The translations under genes were made by a program, and so were the position numbers. A DNA stretch of 64,000 bases from the IMG/VR virus record IMGVR_UViG_3300021085_002380, one strand, 5' to 3'. Below the pieces are notes generated by a model. The model was not told where the DNA came from and searched no databases. It saw only the letters and a list, made by a program, of their open reading frames with translations. Shown here piece by piece: positions 24,369-50,272 of this stretch (position 1 is its first letter; the number at the start of each line of letters is the position of its first letter). Source of the stretch: a virus.

Positions 24369-24960
24369 ATTTCAATCCATTATACATATCAATTGGCGCA
24401 TCCCATTCCGCCGGGGTTTTAACACTACTTACAATACCGTTTGTAAATGTATTATGCGGTATTTTTTCGTGAACTAAAAATCTATCTATACCTTTATACT
24501 TACGCATAAAATAATCTTTGTTGGACATAAAGTGATCCCATACATGGTTCTGTTCACCAGCTATCCATGTAATTACAGAACTATTTATATGTACATCGTA
24601 GGCGTGTGGTGCCATGTACAAATCGTTTTTCCAATAGTCTCTGATTATCGTCAAGCCGTCCCACTTGATAAACTCAGAAGGATCTCTCTTAATATCCATA
24701 TCTAAATCAAAGAAAAGACATTTGCCTGTAACTGGAAAGTCTTCACTAAACATAGCTAGCTTGTTCCACCAATACTTTAACGATGGTTTGTTAAAACAAG
24801 GTATGAATGGAATATTTAAACCTGCAGGAAATTCTGTATAGCAATAATAATTAGCATTAGGATAAAACTCTTTCAGCTGTGTATGCAGCCTATTCACATG
24901 TTCAGTGTGATACTTATTTCCATGCTTTACAAATATAATATTCATTTTAATTTTCCACAT
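24343..24960 (-). CDS. GT-A glycosyltransferase
   Basis: KHGNKY, WWNKL, FFDLD, INSSVITW and GIDRF. Confidence 0.75.
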   Translation of the reverse strand: MWKIKMNIIFVKHGNKYHTEHVNRLHTQLKEFYPNANYYCYTEFPAGLNIPFIPCFNKPSLKYWWNKLAMFSEDFPVTGKCLFFDLDMDIKRDPSEFIKWDGLTIIRDYWKNDLYMAPHAYDVHINSSVITWIAGEQNHVWDHFMSNKDYFMRKYKGIDRFLVHEKIPHNTFTNGIVSSVKTPAEWDAPIDMYNGLKYELPTKSL

Positions 24961-26114
24961 ACCTTAACACAAGCGTGACAAGCTGTTTCAGGAGTTTCCC
25001 AATGTTCAGGTAACTTTTGTTTGAACCACGTTGATTCCATTATATCATAGATACTACTATAATGTAAATTAAAATCTTTCCAATTATCAATATATTCTTG
25101 CATTAATGGATGTTTGGGGTCAGCATACTTTCCAGTTGACGTAATCATATATTGAGTGTTTTCACCTTTTAAATATAATGCTGCTCGTTCTAACGATGTC
25201 GAAAGATAACAACATGGTGATACCATACCACTTGCTTGTACTTTAATGTTGTTTTCGCCAATAGCTAAACAATTTATTTCGTATTCTTTCTTTTTTTGTT
25301 TGACAGGCTCAGCTACCTGTGGTATAATAGGTTTATCCTCAATAGGTAATAATTTAGATTGATTTGATTTAATATTAGTAACAATATCTTTATGTCTATG
25401 ATCACGTACTCTGCGTGTCCTACGTTCCAATCCTTGTTCTCTATCTTGTCGTGTAACTTGTTCTAATGTTTCTGTTTTACCATCTTCATTTAAGAATTCA
25501 TAAACAGAACCTAACTGAAAGTTATTTCCTTCAACTTCATCAAACTTAATTGGTCTTTGAGCACGTTCGTTAACCATATTACGAATATCTTCGAGATAGT
25601 CTTGATTGTGTTTAAATAAAACAGTAAGTACTTTGATATTTGCATCAGTACCTGAGGTTACTTCTATTGCGTCCAATACTTTATTGAGATCGGATCCTCG
25701 GCGATAAAAGCTATGCATTTCTTGGTCAATACCGTCAACATCAAATATAAGTTGAAGTCTTGAACCACCCCAAGCCGCAAGGTTAAACCAAAACTCTTCA
25801 TCTCTCATAGATCCATTTGTATTTATAGAAATACGGCAAGTACCTTCTAACGCAAGATACTTAACAATATCCATTAGATCTTTACACATCCCAGGATCAC
25901 CATAAGTTCCTGAAAAATGAATACACCCAATTGACTGTATAATAGTTGGAGGAAACCACTTCATAAAATCTTTTAAACTGACAGACGTAAGCGGTAACCA
26001 CTCCATCTTATTTAAATTATTTCTATGATCTGTCCTTGAACATTGCGGACATTTAAGATTACAATGAGTAGTAAGTTCAACGTCAAATGTTAAGTTATGC
26101 CATCTCCACGTCAT
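24942..26114 (-). CDS. Radical SAM protein with C-terminal SPASM/twitch domain
   Basis: CNLKCPQC, GTYGDP and TNGS; C-term C...PCCY...CVKVC. Confidence 0.9.
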   Translation of the reverse strand: MTWRWHNLTFDVELTTHCNLKCPQCSRTDHRNNLNKMEWLPLTSVSLKDFMKWFPPTIIQSIGCIHFSGTYGDPGMCKDLMDIVKYLALEGTCRISINTNGSMRDEEFWFNLAAWGGSRLQLIFDVDGIDQEMHSFYRRGSDLNKVLDAIEVTSGTDANIKVLTVLFKHNQDYLEDIRNMVNERAQRPIKFDEVEGNNFQLGSVYEFLNEDGKTETLEQVTRQDREQGLERRTRRVRDHRHKDIVTNIKSNQSKLLPIEDKPIIPQVAEPVKQKKKEYEINCLAIGENNIKVQASGMVSPCCYLSTSLERAALYLKGENTQYMITSTGKYADPKHPLMQEYIDNWKDFNLHYSSIYDIMESTWFKQKLPEHWETPETACHACVKVCGKLK

Positions 26115-27193
26115 GTGATTTCTATATCTGTGTATTTAGTCATTCTAGATCCTTCATATGAATCCAAGCACCAATTTTCAATTTGACTAATTAAGTGCTC
26201 TGCTATGCCGTAGTTTCTTAAATTACTATGTTTAATTTTTTTTAATTCTAATTGCAAGTAATCAATTATTTCAACTAATTCTTTTGGAGGCATATGCTTT
26301 ATAGATAAATGTTTTGGATAAAGAATAGTATTAAACCAAAGATTGCATTTGTGCTTATCAGTGAACTTAACAAATTCTATCATTTCATCCCAATTATTAT
26401 TCATAGGGTTAACCATAATAGATAAGCTTCGTTTATTTGTATGGCAATAATTTTTAAATATATCAAAATATTTCATAAGTGTATTAAAGTTACCATTTAC
26501 TCTTATTTCTTCATATCGTTCTGGAATTAAACTATCAATACTAATATTTAAATGGATATTACATTTATCAAGTATTCCTTGAACTCTTTTATTATAAACA
26601 GTACCATTGGTTGCGATATTAACTTTAAGCTCTGGTTTAATTTCAGCTACAACATCAAGTAAATCTAATAATATTTTTTGAGCAAAGGGTTCACCGCCAT
26701 TTACTCTTAATTCAGTAAGGTGTGGAATAAACTCTCGCATTTGTTCTAAAAACGAATCATCAAATATTTGTGGTAATGGTGGAAGCTTATCTCTATTTTT
26801 TCTAATGCCGGAACTTAAATTGCCATCGCACATAATGCATTCAAGATTACATTGATTACTTAATTCAATTTCCATAAGAGACGGCATAGTATTTACTGGA
26901 AACTTTTCATATGCTTTCGCCAATGGCCAGACATTGTTATCAATATCTTTTTTGCATTCTACACATCTATTTAAAAACTTGTTTTGCTTTAATGCTGTGC
27001 GGTACTTTTCAAAATGTTCGCCTGTCCATATATCCATTAAAGATCTATCTTTACTCCACTGGTCGCAGGCACCAGGAAGCTTCCAGCAAGGAGAAACATT
27101 TCCTTGGAGTGTGATATACATATTATTGAATGGCGCGTTGCAGGGTATATCCTGCCCGTATAATTTTTTCACCATAACATTATCTCCGCCCAC
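26111..27193 (-). CDS. Radical SAM protein with N-terminal twitch/SPASM-like domain
   Basis: CNAPF..VSPC..CVEC, then CNLECIMC, GGEPF, TNGT and ISID. Confidence 0.9.
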   Translation of the reverse strand: MGGDNVMVKKLYGQDIPCNAPFNNMYITLQGNVSPCWKLPGACDQWSKDRSLMDIWTGEHFEKYRTALKQNKFLNRCVECKKDIDNNVWPLAKAYEKFPVNTMPSLMEIELSNQCNLECIMCDGNLSSGIRKNRDKLPPLPQIFDDSFLEQMREFIPHLTELRVNGGEPFAQKILLDLLDVVAEIKPELKVNIATNGTVYNKRVQGILDKCNIHLNISIDSLIPERYEEIRVNGNFNTLMKYFDIFKNYCHTNKRSLSIMVNPMNNNWDEMIEFVKFTDKHKCNLWFNTILYPKHLSIKHMPPKELVEIIDYLQLELKKIKHSNLRNYGIAEHLISQIENWCLDSYEGSRMTKYTDIEIT

Positions 27194-28272
27194 TCTTTAA
27201 ACGAATCATTAAAAGATTCATTTCTGATTTTATCTAATTTGATAGTTTCGTTATGAAATTGTAAAAGTGCGTTATCGCGTTCAACATTCATAAACTTTGT
27301 TATTGTTTCATATTTATTACCGAATTTTTCATTGACTTCTCTTTTAGCATCGTTAGACAAGTATTGAACTGATAAGTATTTTGGTTCATGTAATAATCCG
27401 TTAGATACAGCTATTTTGTTGTTATTACACCATTCATCTAACTCGTTTAAATAATAAATGTTGAAATTATTAACAGTTCTATAAACCAAAATACAAAACT
27501 TAGGATAGTTTTTAACCATATTAAATATATTGTCTTGTATAAGATTCCATTTAGAATTACCACGCTGGTACTCTAATCTATCTCCAATATCATCTACACT
27601 TAACGCTATAGTTACTTTCTTAAACTTCTTCATTTTATCCATCAAGGCTGGAACATAGAACATGCCGTTTGTAGTAATGTTAAGATGTATATTTTTAGCG
27701 TATTCACTAGATGAAATTAGGTCTATTAATTTTTTATTTTCAGCGCTAAAGAAAGGTTCACCACCAGTTAACTCAAGATATACCATGTTAGGAAGCCATT
27801 CTTCAAAGAATAGTCTTTCATTATCTGTATCAATTATTTTGTTTGATAACCAATACGGATTTTGCATGTTTCGTTCTTTTGCAATTGAACTTGACGCGGT
27901 TGCGCTGCACATCCTACACTTTAAATTACACACGTTTGAAAGTTTCAAGTCAAACATTCGAGGAGAAGAAGTGGTTATATCATAATTAGCGTGAGCGTCA
28001 CGCTCTGCAAACATTTGCCTAAAACTGTGTATACCGACATCTTCTTCTTTCCAACACCAAGAGCATTCTTCTGGCTCTTCGCCGTTTATAAAAGCTTGCC
28101 GCAAGGCCTGCATTTCAGCGCCGTTATACAACTCAACTAACGTGCCATCTTGCATCCAAGGCATTTTATGTTTTGTTTGTCGGTCAGGCTGTTCATATCT
28201 GCAGCACGGTCTGATAGATCCATTTACATCAGTAGACAAATTAATCCAAGGAGCTGTGCAAAATCTACCCAT
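27169..28272 (-). CDS. Radical SAM protein with N-terminal twitch domain
   Basis: CTAPW..RPCC..CSWC, then CNLKCRMC, GGEPF and TTNG. Confidence 0.9.
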   Translation of the reverse strand: MGRFCTAPWINLSTDVNGSIRPCCRYEQPDRQTKHKMPWMQDGTLVELYNGAEMQALRQAFINGEEPEECSWCWKEEDVGIHSFRQMFAERDAHANYDITTSSPRMFDLKLSNVCNLKCRMCSATASSSIAKERNMQNPYWLSNKIIDTDNERLFFEEWLPNMVYLELTGGEPFFSAENKKLIDLISSSEYAKNIHLNITTNGMFYVPALMDKMKKFKKVTIALSVDDIGDRLEYQRGNSKWNLIQDNIFNMVKNYPKFCILVYRTVNNFNIYYLNELDEWCNNNKIAVSNGLLHEPKYLSVQYLSNDAKREVNEKFGNKYETITKFMNVERDNALLQFHNETIKLDKIRNESFNDSFKEWAEIMLW

Positions 28273-32937: not shown

Positions 32938-33711
32938 TTATTTAAACTTTTTGACAGAACGAAAAACTTTACGATAGCCTCCGCGAAACATACTCTGCAA
33001 TGCAGTAACGTCGCGGTGGCGTTTTCTACTAAAATCGTCACCTGGGATCATGCTAATAATTTCATGACTCCATGCTTCTCTTTTAAATGGAAATAATTGT
33101 AAAAGTGGAGTACCTTGTGGTATTAATACGCCGTTCTTAGAAAGGTTTGTAAATATAAATGGAAAATTAATTTCTAATGTATAATTGTCTGAGTCTATAA
33201 TACCATTCATAAATTGTATTCCTAGATCTTTTAAATGATCGTTATTATGATGATTATTAACTAAGATACTATATCCAGGTGGTGTTTCAATACAAAACCA
33301 AGTAATAAGTTTTAAAGCAACTGCGTCTGGTGGTGTTTTATCAAATAATGAGTGTTTTCCTAATTGCCATGTACCGTGAAAATTAATAAAATCATGCGGT
33401 GACATACCGCTTTTAGCCCATTCACAATTGAAATGAATATCATCGTCATCTTGCCAAGCTTTAATTTTCATATCCACTGGAGATTTTACAACATATCCCC
33501 CAGTCATTGCATCAAGAACAGGCATACATGTTTTAATTGTAGAATCTTTATCTGGATGTGTACCTTCTGGAAGCTTTCCCACTGGACAAGATTTCGATGT
33601 CTTTCTAAACCATTCCGGAATACTACGATCAGCTGGGACAGGATGATATGGTTTTACGTTCATATCATCTGGTATATAAAACTTAATTACTGGATTCTTT
33701 TTCCAAAACAT
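32938..33711 (-). CDS. Hypothetical protein, possibly with a dUTPase-like beta fold
   Basis: TIKTCMPVLDAM.GY, TPPGYS, GIIDSD and GTPLLQLFPFKRE. Confidence 0.65.
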   Translation of the reverse strand: MFWKKNPVIKFYIPDDMNVKPYHPVPADRSIPEWFRKTSKSCPVGKLPEGTHPDKDSTIKTCMPVLDAMTGGYVVKSPVDMKIKAWQDDDDIHFNCEWAKSGMSPHDFINFHGTWQLGKHSLFDKTPPDAVALKLITWFCIETPPGYSILVNNHHNNDHLKDLGIQFMNGIIDSDNYTLEINFPFIFTNLSKNGVLIPQGTPLLQLFPFKREAWSHEIISMIPGDDFSRKRHRDVTALQSMFRGGYRKVFRSVKKFK

Positions 33712-33728
33712 AATATTCTATCCTTATA

Positions 33729-33908
33729 TGGTTTTCGAGGGAGAGGCTTTCTGCAGTGCCCCTCCCTTTATTTGCATTTGACGTATGCAACAACCGACTG
33801 GGTTTTGTTACGGTACCAGTGCTTTTACCGACCTATGCTAGAGGGCCACTTCCTTGCATAGGGTTTATATAATGAGTTCTTACCTCCTGGTCGGGTTTTC
33901 CTCATTAT
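33729..33908 (-). ncRNA. Putative structured RNA downstream of tRNA-Pro
   Basis: Consecutive hairpins and an H-type pseudoknot; ends in ...AACCA. Confidence 0.5.
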
Positions 33909-33912
33909 TCTT

Positions 33913-33989
33913 TGGTCTCGGAAGTAGGATTTGAACCTACGGTCTCCTGGTCCCAAACCAGGCGCTTTACCAAACTAAGCTACACCGAG
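33913..33989 (-). tRNA. tRNA-Pro(UGG)
   Basis: Cloverleaf; CCTGG-TTTGGGA-CCAGG anticodon arm; GTTCAAATC; CCA end. Confidence 0.95.
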
Positions 33990-33993
33990 TAAT

Positions 33994-34189
33994 AGAACTA
34001 CTTTCCTCATACGCCCAGCTAGTATTTCCAATTTCTCCGCACGGCCTTATTGACATTGCCGCTCTAGTTCGATTGAAACTAACATCTCCACGTTTTCACG
34101 ACACTGATATTTCACAGGCGAATTATTCTCGCGAGATTGTGCTTTCAGGTGGCCTGCCCTCTACACGGACGTATGAGAAAAATAGTCCT
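33994..34189 (-). ncRNA. Putative ~195-nt multibranched RNA
   Basis: 23-bp terminal stem whose G-U pairs work only on the minus strand; several internal hairpins. Confidence 0.7.
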
Positions 34190-34320
34190 TATACATCTAC
34201 ATACGGATTATCTTTTCCGTAGATTTCTTTAGCGCTTGCCCAACCAGAGCGGTTACCAAGAATATATCCAATAACACCGCTAAGAAAGATGATGCCGGCT
34301 AATGTGATAAACTGTTCCAT
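34189..34320 (-). CDS. Small membrane protein
   Basis: Start MEQFITL after AAGGA; one TM helix. Confidence 0.6.
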   Translation of the reverse strand: MEQFITLAGIIFLSGVIGYILGNRSGWASAKEIYGKDNPYVDV

Positions 34321-34351
34321 AACTGATTCCTTTTTTCCATTTGATATAACT

Positions 34352-34380
34352 AATATAACTGATTCTAAACAGAATGTCAA
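34352..34380 (-). promoter_or_regulatory. Early promoter with GAATCAG
   Basis: TTGACA-N17-TATATT. Confidence 0.85.
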
Positions 34381-34490
34381 TAGTTAATTTGCTTCCATAC
34401 CACTTTAATATAATGAGCATCAAGAATATCTCTGTATTCTATGGCGTCAAGAACACAATCAAAGCGTTTGCCGTTAATACAATAAATCAT
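34377..34490 (-). CDS. Small hypothetical protein (37 aa)
   Basis: ATGA-coupled; MIYCINGKRF...QINY. Confidence 0.45.
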   Translation of the reverse strand: MIYCINGKRFDCVLDAIEYRDILDAHYIKVVWKQINY

Positions 34491-34756
34491 CCCCAATCCT
34501 TAAAGTCCATGTTTACGGTTTCGTTATATTCATGTCCTGCGAAATACTCTTTAATTTGTTCTTCAGTCATAAATTCTTTTTCTATACGAAACGCTTTACC
34601 GGTACCAAGAGGCCAGTAATGCGGGTCATAAGGACGGCCATAATACGAATCAGCACTTCCGCGGTCAAAAGGACCACCGTGCCGAACTGTATCTGATTCT
34701 CCAAACGTAACATCATAAGTAACGCCTGCATATTCAAAATATTCTGGTTTAGACAT
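34487..34756 (-). CDS. Hypothetical early protein
   Basis: HGGPFDRGSADSYYGR motif; start MSKPEY. Confidence 0.7.
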   Translation of the reverse strand: MSKPEYFEYAGVTYDVTFGESDTVRHGGPFDRGSADSYYGRPYDPHYWPLGTGKAFRIEKEFMTEEQIKEYFAGHEYNETVNMDFKDWG

Positions 34757-50024: not shown

Positions 50025-50101
50025 TGGTACTCCCCACAGGACTCGAACCTGTAACCAAAACGTTATGAGCGTTCTGCTCTAACCAATTGAGCTAGAAGAG
50101 T
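50025..50101 (-). tRNA. tRNA-CAU (Ile2 or elongator Met)
   Basis: Cloverleaf; CTCATAA loop; CCA end. Confidence 0.9.
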
Positions 50102-50107
50102 GTTATA

Positions 50108-50192
50108 TGGTACTCGCAACCGGACTCGAACCGGTACGCCCTAAGGCAAAAGATTTTAAGTCTTCATTGTCTACCAATTCCAACATGCGAGC
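50108..50192 (-). tRNA. tRNA-Leu(UAA)
   Basis: CTTAAAA loop; long variable arm; CCA end. Confidence 0.95.
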
Positions 50193-50194
50193 AA

Positions 50195-50272
50195 TGGTGA
50201 TCTCTGTAGGACTCGAACCTACGACCTAGTGCTTAGAAGGCACTTGCTCTAATCCAGCTGAGCTAAGAGACC
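50195..50272 (-). tRNA. tRNA-Arg(UCU)
   Basis: AGTGC-CTTCTAA-GCACT anticodon arm; CCA end. Confidence 0.95.

What the first reader, a model, noticed from the sequence alone, without database searches (positions are those of the whole stretch)
33994..34189. Unannotated ~195-nt structured RNA closed by a 23-bp stem, just 5' of tRNA-Pro
Seen on the minus strand: AGGACUAUUUUUCUCAUACGUCC pairs without interruption to GGGCGUAUGAGGAAAGUAGUUCU, using several G-U pairs that would be A-C mismatches on the plus strand. The interior holds a multibranch (AUCUC/GAGAU enclosing GCGA/UCGC, CUG/CAG and CGU-GAAA-ACG) plus UAGUU/AACUA and GCGGC/GCCGU hairpins. It ends 4 nt before the tRNA, so tRNA 5' processing would release it. 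Known: T4 tRNA clusters carry stable RNAs of unknown function. I do not recognise the family.
Basis: partly seen in the sequence, partly recalled or inferred. Interest (0 to 1): 0.72.

Follow-up and report, generated by a model that had tools for sequence, protein, structure and literature searches.

The report
Self-pairing structured RNA of marine phages
The stretch just upstream of tRNA-Pro is a real gene for a folded, non-coding RNA from an uncatalogued family common in uncultured marine phages, and one of its loops always carries a self-complementary word, which suggests that two copies dock onto each other.

Summary
Window 33994-34189 (minus strand) folds into a 196-nt RNA closed by a 23-24 bp helix (z = -4.6). 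It ends 4 nt before tRNA-Pro.

It belongs to a large family:
- 89 covariance-model hits in IMG/VR contigs
- 126 distinct sequences in all

No member was found in Rfam 15, in 50,697 GenBank phage records, or in 185,579 prokaryote genomes.

Covariation is strong: 98% of cells pair, against about 42% when the partners are slid, and 22 pairs show compensatory changes.

The RNA is modular. It has a closing helix P1 (21-24 bp), a hairpin P2, a replaceable middle domain P3 and a conserved 3' domain.

The 8-nt P2 loop holds a self-complementary tetranucleotide in all 126 members (GGCC, GAUC, CCGG, GUAC, GCGC, or wobble UCGG/GGCU). Its two central, adjacent bases covary as Watson-Crick partners. This is the signature used for the symmetric kissing loops of OLE and GOLLD.

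My best reading is an early-transcribed, stand-alone RNA that is freed at its 3' end by RNase P and forms a kissing-loop homodimer. Its cellular function is unknown.

This scan has already found the same family on other DNA.

The parts
33994..34189 (-). The RNA gene (196 nt), a member of the uncatalogued phage RNA family modelled here as R1
   Evidence: Fold z = -4.59. R1 scores 164.4 bits, E = 2e-34, and this is the only copy in the 64-kb window. No Rfam match.
34167..34189 (-). P1, 5' arm of the closing helix
   Evidence: Pairs with 33994-34016. Across the family the helix has 21 consensus pairs, 99% of cells paired, and 11 pairs with changes on both sides.
33994..34016 (-). P1, 3' arm of the closing helix. 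Here it reads ..AAGUAGUU.., which is not a Shine-Dalgarno sequence
   Evidence: In members followed by an ORF this arm reads AAGGAG and the start codon lies 3-5 nt after the helix. It never does so in members followed by a tRNA (Fisher p = 2e-6).
34139..34166 (-). P2 hairpin. The stems are GUGU/GCAC and AGG/CCU, separated by a 4x4 internal loop. The 8-nt loop GCAGGCCA lies at 34150-34157 and the palindrome GGCC at 34151-34154
   Evidence: The loop is unpaired in the minimum-energy and centroid folds. The tetranucleotide at loop positions 4-7 is self-complementary in 126 of 126 distinct members. Its adjacent central bases give the second highest mutual information in the alignment.
34084..34137 (-). 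P3, the variable middle domain. In this copy it is a 54-nt branched form
   Evidence: The base helix (AUCUC/GAGAU and its extension) and the CUG/CAG hairpin covary within the subfamily. The domain is 0-3 nt, a 6-bp hairpin, or a different insert of 18-76 nt in other members. The close relative L001 has it replaced.
34017..34083 (-). Conserved 3' domain. It is a long irregular hairpin (helices CUAGU/ACUAG, UUCAAUC/GAUUGGA, CU/GG and GCGGC/GCCGU) capped by the near-invariant loop AAUGUCAAUAAG at 34046-34057
   Evidence: This is the most conserved part of the family. Compensatory changes occur at AU to GC and CG to UA pairs.
33990..33993 (-). 4-nt linker between the RNA and the tRNA
   Evidence: The linker is 2-6 nt in the 11 tRNA-linked members.
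33913..33989 (-). tRNA-Pro(UGG). Its 5' maturation would define the 3' end of the RNA
   Evidence: ARAGORN. Rfam tRNA model, 66.8 bits.
34352..34380 (-). Sigma-70-type early promoter (TTGACA, 17 nt, TATATT) that probably drives the small ORF, the RNA, tRNA-Pro and the second RNA as one transcript
   Evidence: The consensus scan matches 11 of 12 positions. No terminator-like site lies on the minus strand between it and the tRNA.
34189..34320 (-). 43-codon ORF for a small hydrophobic protein. Its stop codon overlaps the first base of P1
   Evidence: The ORF is conserved in L001.

Best explanation
This is a stand-alone gene for a structured non-coding RNA. It belongs to an undescribed family that is widespread in uncultured marine and estuarine phages, among them T4-like ones such as this phage.

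How I think it is made in this window:
- It is transcribed early from the sigma-70-type promoter at 34380-34352, together with a 43-codon ORF and tRNA-Pro.
- RNase P cutting at the tRNA 5' end gives the RNA its 3' end, with a 4-nt tail.
- The 23-24 bp closing helix P1 clamps the two ends. It insulates the fold from whatever flanks it. It is also long enough to be an RNase III processing stalk that could set the 5' end.

How I think it works: the folded RNA exposes an 8-nt loop on P2 with the palindrome GGCC. Two copies pair through this loop in a symmetric kissing complex, so the active form is an RNA homodimer. It presents two copies of the conserved 3' domain with its invariant loop.

What is shown and what is inferred:
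- Shown: the fold, the family, the covariation, the strand, the modular build, and the self-complementarity of the loop.
- Inferred: dimerisation, processing by RNase P and RNase III, and action in trans.
- Unknown: the molecular target or partner of the dimer.
For: The family and its structure:
- R1 gives 89 hits in IMG/VR loci at 113-178 bits for full-length matches, 62 of them distinct.
- The motif scan finds at least 119 metagenome contigs and stopped at its cap.
- 98.0% of cells pair, against 38-46% with slid partners. 22 pairs change on both sides. None of 500 shuffles reaches the observed values.

Stand-alone gene:
- L012 has a promoter ending about 8 nt before P1.
- L034 has a terminator 17 nt after P1.
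- The neighbours vary (tRNA-Pro, Thr, Asn or Trp, several unrelated ORFs, or nothing).
- In L063 and L097 it heads arrays of 4-6 tRNAs.

Dimer signature:
- Positions 4-7 of the P2 loop read GGCC in 79 members, GAUC in 29, CCGG in 9, GUAC in 5 and GCGC in 1. Three more keep self-pairing through wobble (UCGG 2, GGCU 1). That is 126 of 126.
- The two central, adjacent bases are GC, AU, CG or UA in every member. This pair has the second highest mutual information in the alignment.
- Kretsch et al. 2025 (PMC12286853) used the same pattern, GGCC changing to GAUC, as evidence for the cryo-EM-verified symmetric kissing loops OLE L9.3 and GOLLD L21a.
- Loop self-duplex energies are -4.6 to -17.9 kcal/mol for the Watson-Crick palindromes. 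Cross-type energies are -0.1 to -4.5.
- L067 carries two tandem elements with different palindromes, GGCC and CCGG.
Against: - No experiment or read-level data show a discrete transcript or a dimer. RNA-library contigs hold relatives, but they cannot prove transcription or define the ends.
- A 4-bp kissing contact is weak on its own.
- No second intermolecular contact was detected by covariation.
- The window copy has no promoter directly in front of it, so its 5' end depends on an unproven processing step.
- In about half of the members the 3' arm of P1 doubles as the ribosome binding site of the next gene, so a cis role exists at least there.
- No partner or target is known.
Confidence: 0.6

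Rival explanations
1. It is a cis-acting intercistronic element. The long helix is an RNase III (or similar) processing site that separates cistrons. It controls the element downstream by hiding the ribosome binding site until it is cut, or by serving as a structured 5' leader for the tRNA. On this reading the interior has no job of its own.
For: - P1 is 21-24 bp in every member, about the size of an RNase III substrate (textbook knowledge).
- In 26 of 32 ORF-linked contexts the 3' arm holds AGGAG, with the AUG 3-5 nt after the helix. This is so in 0 of 11 tRNA-linked contexts.
Against: - The interior, not the helix, is the most conserved part. About 70 nt are nearly invariant across different phage lineages and contexts.
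- Some copies are followed by a terminator or by nothing.
- The window copy has no ribosome binding site in its arm.
- The palindrome covariation is left unexplained.
Confidence: 0.15
2. It is a monomeric protein-binding RNA, acting as a decoy, sponge or scaffold for a host or phage protein. The palindromic loop would be the site for a symmetric protein dimer, or merely a structural feature.
For: - The 12-nt loop and the internal loops are invariant, which suits protein recognition.
- No RNA target was found.
- Phage ncRNAs near tRNAs are often proposed to work with proteins (background knowledge).
Against: - A sequence-specific protein site would not change between GGCC, GAUC, GUAC, CCGG and GCGC while staying self-complementary, and it would not tolerate wobble variants.
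- No protein gene is consistently adjacent.
Confidence: 0.12
3. It is a DNA-level element. This could be a miniature inverted-repeat mobile element or a recombination cassette of the PeSL kind, whose terminal inverted repeats and internal palindrome act in DNA.
For: - It sits in a hyperplastic early region with repeated promoters, and it occurs in many genomic contexts.
- Its modules are swapped between close relatives.
- PeSL cassettes shuffle genes in T4-type phages (PMC2839356).
Against: - The arms vary in sequence while keeping pairing, and they hold many G-U pairs that would be A-C mismatches in DNA or on the other strand.
- The model is strongly strand-specific, 164 against 22 bits.
- There is one copy per 64-kb window.
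- P1 is not followed by a U-run, so it is not a terminator.
Confidence: 0.04
4. It is a riboswitch or other ligand-sensing leader that controls the downstream gene.
For: The structured core is conserved, and in many members the ribosome binding site lies in the closing helix.
Against: - A helix of 21-24 bp is far too stable to switch.
- The downstream elements are unrelated to each other (tRNAs, a 68-aa protein, a MazG-like protein, membrane peptides, terminators).
- No alternative pairing is supported by covariation.
Confidence: 0.02

Closest known systems
GOLLD (RF01998), ROOL (RF03087) and OLE RNAs: ornate RNAs that form RNA-only homo-oligomers (Kretsch et al. 2025, PMC12286853)
   Same: GOLLD and ROOL are phage-encoded and often lie next to tRNA genes. 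GOLLD also has a universally conserved 3' region beside a less conserved 5' region. A symmetric loop changes between palindromes (GGCC to GAUC) while staying self-complementary, which in OLE and GOLLD marks a kissing loop verified by cryo-EM.
   Different: There is no sequence or model similarity (Rfam negative). This RNA is 138-225 nt, against about 580-800 nt or more. Only one self-complementary loop was found, so a dimer is expected rather than a cage. It has a 21-24 bp closing helix.
Phage T4 stable RNAs rnaC and rnaD (species 1 and 2) in the tRNA cluster
   Same: They are small, stable-looking RNAs of unknown function encoded beside tRNA genes in a T4-type phage. They are presumably freed by the tRNA-processing enzymes.
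   Different: R1 finds nothing at T4 rnaC or rnaD with filters off. T4 rnaC folds with a tRNA-like T arm and has no long closing helix. The rnaD fold is not better than shuffles. The T4 RNAs lie 3' of a tRNA, whereas this RNA lies 5' of one.
phi29-type packaging RNA (pRNA, Rfam RF00044)
   Same: The architecture is similar (from my own knowledge). The 5' and 3' ends pair into a long helix, and a central domain carries loops that pair between copies to build dimers and rings.
   Different: There is no Rfam match. The pRNA loops are complementary to each other rather than palindromic. T4-type phages package DNA without an RNA. Here the genomic context is the early region, not the packaging genes.
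HIV-1 dimerisation initiation site (DIS) hairpin
   Same: It has a palindrome in a hairpin loop (6 nt in a 9-nt loop, from my own knowledge) that varies between strains while staying self-complementary. It nucleates a kissing-loop homodimer.
   Different: It is part of a viral genome, not a small RNA, and it is unrelated in sequence and biology.
PeSL (promoter-early stem-loop) cassettes of T4-type phages (Arbiol et al. 2010, PMC2839356)
   Same: [quoted passage not shown]
   Different: PeSL stem-loops are short terminators. This element has 100-180 nt of conserved, covarying interior and no U-run after its helix.

Membership tests
Any Rfam 15 family (4227 models) | A covariance-model score at or above the family's gathering threshold | tested here: not met
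   Only tRNA hits appear in the window at gathering thresholds. Nothing overlaps the RNA at E <= 10 over 33500-34600. Nothing overlaps the family RNA in 8 other members at E <= 1.
The new family itself (model R1, built here) | A full-length match to R1, with P1, P2, the base of P3 and the 3' domain | tested here: met
   The window copy scores 164.4 bits over model positions 1-163. It was one of the 35 seed sequences. The 37 loci that were not in the seed and matched in full score 113-178 bits.
The new family itself (model R1, built here) | A self-complementary tetranucleotide at positions 4-7 of the 8-nt P2 loop | tested here: met
   The window has GGCC at 34151-34154. The word is self-complementary in 126 of 126 distinct members.
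GOLLD / ROOL / OLE (RNA-only homo-oligomers) | Homology to the Rfam models | tested here: not met
GOLLD / ROOL / OLE (RNA-only homo-oligomers) | Covariation that can only be intermolecular (adjacent bases covarying as Watson-Crick partners in a palindromic loop) | tested here: met
   The central dinucleotide is GC in 80 members, AU in 29, CG in 12 and UA in 5, and it ranks second in mutual information. The criterion is the one stated in PMC12286853.
GOLLD / ROOL / OLE (RNA-only homo-oligomers) | A physical homo-oligomer | not testable with these tools
   This needs native gels, SEC-MALS or cryo-EM.
T4 rnaC / rnaD | Sequence and structure similarity to the T4 RNAs | tested here: not met
   R1 with filters off, run on T4 positions 69500-73500, gives no hit at rnaC or rnaD. 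The best hit elsewhere is 13 bits. The folds differ.
Retron msr-msd RNA | Terminal inverted repeats together with an adjacent reverse transcriptase gene | tested here: not met
   A long terminal helix is present. The downstream neighbours, however, are a tRNA, a 257-aa protein with no Pfam match, a 68-aa protein, a MazG-like protein or terminators. None of the neighbours scanned has a reverse transcriptase domain, and no neighbour recurs consistently.
RNase III processing stalk (as around rRNA, or at T7 early mRNA sites) | About two turns (20 bp or more) of double-stranded RNA formed by sequences that flank the released RNA | tested here: met
   P1 is 21-24 bp and 99% paired across the family.
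RNase III processing stalk (as around rRNA, or at T7 early mRNA sites) | Cleavage by RNase III | not testable with these tools
   This needs an in vitro cleavage assay or end mapping.
Riboswitch | A switchable helix and a consistent class of regulated genes | tested here: not met
   The helix has 21-24 bp, the downstream elements are heterogeneous, and no alternative pairing is supported by covariation.
PeSL cassette | An early promoter plus a short terminator stem-loop | tested here: not met
   No terminator-like site lies on the RNA strand, and the interior is conserved and structured.

The most novel reading that the evidence does not exclude
This would be the smallest known class of natural RNA-only homo-oligomers. 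A phage RNA of 140-225 nt would dimerise through a kissing loop whose palindrome is diversified (GGCC, GAUC, GUAC, CCGG, GCGC). Paralogues in one genome, and RNAs of co-infecting relatives, would then pair only with their own kind. The dimer would act in trans on a host or phage target through its invariant 3' domain. That would make it a compact, tractable counterpart of the GOLLD and ROOL particles found beside phage tRNA genes.
Probability: 0.4. Interest if true: 0.8.

Novelty: new variant of a known kind. Interest (0 to 1): 0.74.

Why it matters
Phage-encoded structured RNAs beside tRNA genes (T4 rnaC and rnaD, GOLLD, ROOL) have lacked a function for decades. Only recently were the large ones shown to be RNA-only assemblies.

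This family is abundant in ocean viromes and short enough for routine synthesis, probing and structure work. It is also modular and carries the same evolutionary signature of self-association. It could therefore serve as a small model for two questions: why phages make self-assembling RNAs, and how the specificity of a kissing loop evolves.

It also adds a well-supported family, with an alignment and a model, to a part of the virosphere that has no cultured representative.

Tried and rejected
- **Rfam.** Searches at gathering and at permissive thresholds, on the window and on 8 relatives, found nothing but tRNAs.
- **GenBank phages.** BLASTN of the RNA against 50,697 records found no match. 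A 10-kb megablast also found nothing.
- **Prokaryote genomes.** A 28-base motif scanned over 185,579 species genomes gave 0 hits. This is a strict pattern, so distant relatives could have been missed.
- **T4 rnaC and rnaD.** They are not related.
- **Retron, riboswitch, PeSL and MITE readings.** I rejected them for the reasons given in the membership table.
It is 97% paired but no better than shuffles, with no compensatory change. I kept it only as a possible alternative conformer.
- **Loop complementary to promoters.** The invariant 12-nt loop is the reverse complement of this phage's extended -35 motif. In 351 promoter-like sites of family-bearing loci, however, the bases before TTGACA are mostly GG, not TA. 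I therefore treat the match as chance beyond TTGAC.
- **Palindrome avoidance.** GGCC, GATC and the like are not depleted in the window, so this test says nothing.
- **Other tertiary or intermolecular pairs.** A mutual-information scan found none beyond the P2 palindrome.
- **Metatranscriptomes.** Contigs from four RNA libraries were laid on the region. Three of them hold relatives with the short middle domain. Contigs cannot show transcription, ends or levels, so this gives no verdict on a discrete transcript.
- **The catalogue of 10,006 candidate viral RNAs (PMC10690425).** It may already contain this motif anonymously. Its supplementary tables are not held, so this could not be checked.
- **Literature.** Two full-text searches found no description of this family.

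Full report
**1. The observation**

The ends pair over 23-24 bp without interruption. The 196-nt RNA folds to -66.5 kcal/mol, against -48.1 +/- 4.0 for dinucleotide shuffles (z = -4.59; none of 200 folds as well). tRNA-Pro(UGG) lies at 33913-33989 on the same strand, 4 nt after the helix. No ORF of 30 aa or more lies within the stretch on the minus strand. The upstream ORF's stop codon reaches only its first base, and two short plus-strand ORFs overlap it.

**2. The setting**

The window comes from a divergent T4-type phage.
- It encodes both topoisomerase II subunits, a replicative helicase and an SbcCD-like nuclease. The large topoisomerase II subunit is under 50% identical to that of any cultured phage.
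- No whole genome is held for it.
- The RNA sits in a minus-strand block of small genes.
- An 11-of-12 sigma-70-type promoter lies at 34380-34352. It is followed by a 43-codon ORF whose stop codon overlaps the first base of the helix, then the RNA, tRNA-Pro, a second structured stretch, and a 257-aa gene of unknown function.
- No terminator-like site interrupts this on the minus strand.

**3. It is a family**

- The closest relative, L001, has the same neighbours at 87% identity and the same RNA, but its middle domain is replaced by a different, longer one. Its closing helix shows compensatory changes.
- An 18-base word from one hairpin found 51 IMG/VR loci, and a second motif found 86.
- A covariance model (R1; 163 positions, 50 pairs) built from 35 sequences finds 89 matches in the loci held. 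They score 113-178 bits where full length, and 62 are distinct. There is one per locus and one in the window.
- After merging there are 126 distinct elements.
- Sequencing runs that hold this DNA are labelled marine, seawater, freshwater and viral metagenomes.
- The family is absent from 50,697 GenBank phage records and from 185,579 prokaryote species genomes when scanned with a strict motif.

**4. Structure**

On 62 distinct sequences, 98.0% of cells form standard pairs, against 38-46% when the partners are slid by 1-3 columns. Twenty-two of 50 pairs change on both sides. None of 500 shuffles reaches any observed measure.

The RNA has four modules:
- **P1.** A closing helix of 21 consensus pairs (up to 24). 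Eleven pairs covary.
- **P2.** A short hairpin set on a 4x4 internal loop.
- **P3.** An expansion site that is empty, a 6-bp hairpin, a branched form of about 54 nt as here, or an unrelated insert of 18-76 nt.
- **The 3' domain.** A conserved, long, irregular hairpin capped by a nearly invariant 12-nt loop.

Invariant G-U pairs, and a score of 164 against 22 bits, fix the transcribed strand.

- UAGUU/AACUA has no compensatory change and is no better than shuffles. The same bases take part in long-range helices that do covary.
- CGU-GAAA-ACG is not kept in relatives with the same middle domain. CUG/CAG covaries with CCG/CGG.

**5. The self-complementary loop**

I noticed that the 8-nt P2 loop always carries a palindrome at positions 4-7. 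Counting all 126 distinct members gives:

| Word at loop positions 4-7 | Members |
|---|---|
| GGCC | 79 |
| GAUC | 29 |
| CCGG | 9 |
| GUAC | 5 |
| GCGC | 1 |
| UCGG (wobble) | 2 |
| GGCU (wobble) | 1 |

- There are no exceptions.
- In several members the palindrome extends to 6-8 nt.
- The two central, adjacent bases are GC, AU, CG or UA in every sequence. This pair has the second highest corrected mutual information in the whole alignment, after one P1 pair.
- Adjacent bases cannot pair within one chain, so this is the signature of a symmetric intermolecular contact. Kretsch et al. used exactly this argument, and the same GGCC to GAUC change, for the kissing loops OLE L9.3 and GOLLD L21a seen by cryo-EM (PMC12286853).
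- With seven distinct words all self-complementary, the chance expectation is roughly 0.14 to the 6th power, even allowing wobble.
- The wobble variants speak for RNA pairing rather than for a DNA or protein site.
- Loop self-duplexes are predicted at -4.6 to -17.9 kcal/mol for the Watson-Crick palindromes, and cross-type duplexes at -0.1 to -4.5.
- In L067 two tandem elements carry GGCC and CCGG.

**6. Contexts**

There are 66 distinct contexts.
- In 11 a tRNA (Pro, Thr, Asn or Trp) starts 2-6 nt after P1. In L063 and L097 the RNA heads arrays of 4-6 tRNAs.
- In 32 an ORF starts within about 20 nt of the helix end, mostly 3-5 nt after it. In 26 of those the 3' arm reads AGGAG.
- This never occurs in the tRNA-linked set (Fisher p = 2e-6).
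- Hiding a ribosome binding site is therefore a context-dependent extra, and the window copy does not have it.
- Some copies have their own promoter (L012) or their own terminator (L034).
- The neighbours are unrelated to one another. They include a 68-aa protein with no Pfam match, a MazG-like protein and membrane peptides.

**7. Expression**

Contigs from three metatranscriptome studies contain relatives with the short middle domain. Contigs cannot show transcription, ends or abundance, so I count this only as a weak hint.

**8. How it most likely works**

The shown steps are the fold, the family, the strand, the modules, and the self-complementary loop. The rest is inferred.
- Early transcription from the promoter at 34380.
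- The 3' end set by RNase P at the tRNA.
- P1 acting as a clamp, and possibly as an RNase III stalk.
- Homodimer formation through P2.
- Action in trans through the conserved 3' domain.

I put about 0.6 on this package and about 0.95 on 'a real RNA gene of a new family'. The rivals are a purely cis processing or translation element, a monomeric protein-binding RNA, a DNA-level mobile element and a riboswitch. They are weighed in their own sections.

**9. Comparison with known RNAs and novelty**

- **No match to known families.** There is no Rfam family, no relation to T4 rnaC or rnaD, and no paper found in two full-text searches.
- **Possible anonymous listing.** An anonymous entry in the 10,006-motif viral catalogue cannot be excluded.
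- **Nearest kind.** In kind it is nearest to the phage-borne, tRNA-linked, self-associating GOLLD and ROOL RNAs, but it is much smaller and unrelated in sequence. In architecture it recalls phi29 pRNA and the HIV-1 DIS.
- **Earlier notes of this scan.** This scan had already met the same family on other DNA, and its follow-up notes reached the same self-pairing reading. I formed that reading before seeing them and re-tested it here.

Noticed in passing
window 33729-33908 (minus strand): A second structured stretch lies directly 3' of tRNA-Pro (fold z = -2.4) and ends in a GC-rich 10-bp hairpin. Its 3' hairpin motif recurs in other loci: directly upstream of a family RNA in L076 and L190 (also L061), about 60 nt upstream in L067, and after the tRNA in L001 and L180. 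The two RNAs therefore travel together in variable order.
   Followed up: partly
L067:423-527 (minus strand): Right after a full family member comes a second element. It has the same P1 and P2 (palindrome CCGG instead of GGCC) but an unrelated 3' domain, and tRNA-Pro follows it directly. R1 does not detect it. This hints at a wider superfamily defined by P1 plus the palindromic P2.
   Followed up: partly
L016:5905-5995 (minus strand): Another stem-closed element follows the family RNA. Its closing helix is similar and holds AAGGAG before the next gene's AUG. Inside is a P2-like hairpin containing CCGG/GGCC, with a different interior.
   Followed up: no
window 1960, 16465, 17718, 34373, 52728 (minus strand): A repeated 12-base motif, ACTATTGACATT, contains the -35 hexamer of the early promoters. 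The RNA's invariant loop (34046-34057) is the reverse complement of CTTATTGACATT. The match beyond TTGAC is not shared by promoters of other family-bearing phages.
   Followed up: yes
window 33994-34189 compared with L001:2490-2712 and L025:3856-4078: The close relative L001 (same flanks, 87% identical) has the 54-nt middle domain replaced by an unrelated longer insert (about 76 nt by the alignment). The same insert occurs in L025 in a different genomic context, where the closing helix has been adapted to carry a ribosome binding site. This indicates cassette-like exchange of RNA modules.
   Followed up: partly
window 50025-50272 (minus strand): A cluster of three further tRNA genes (Arg-UCU, Leu-UAA, Met-CAU) lies 16 kb away from tRNA-Pro. 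No family RNA is next to it.
   Followed up: no
window 24942-28272 (minus strand): Three consecutive genes encode radical-SAM-domain proteins in the hyperplastic region.
   Followed up: no
L063:2997-3589 and L097:3719-4497: In these contigs a minimal (138-nt) family member heads an array of four to six tRNA genes. This resembles the way GOLLD and ROOL sit at tRNA islands.
   Followed up: partly
L029 compared with L043 (family RNAs): These RNAs are nearly identical in P1 and the 3' domain but carry different P2 cassettes (UGAUCA against GGCC). The palindromic hairpin is therefore exchanged or diversified faster than the rest.
   Followed up: no
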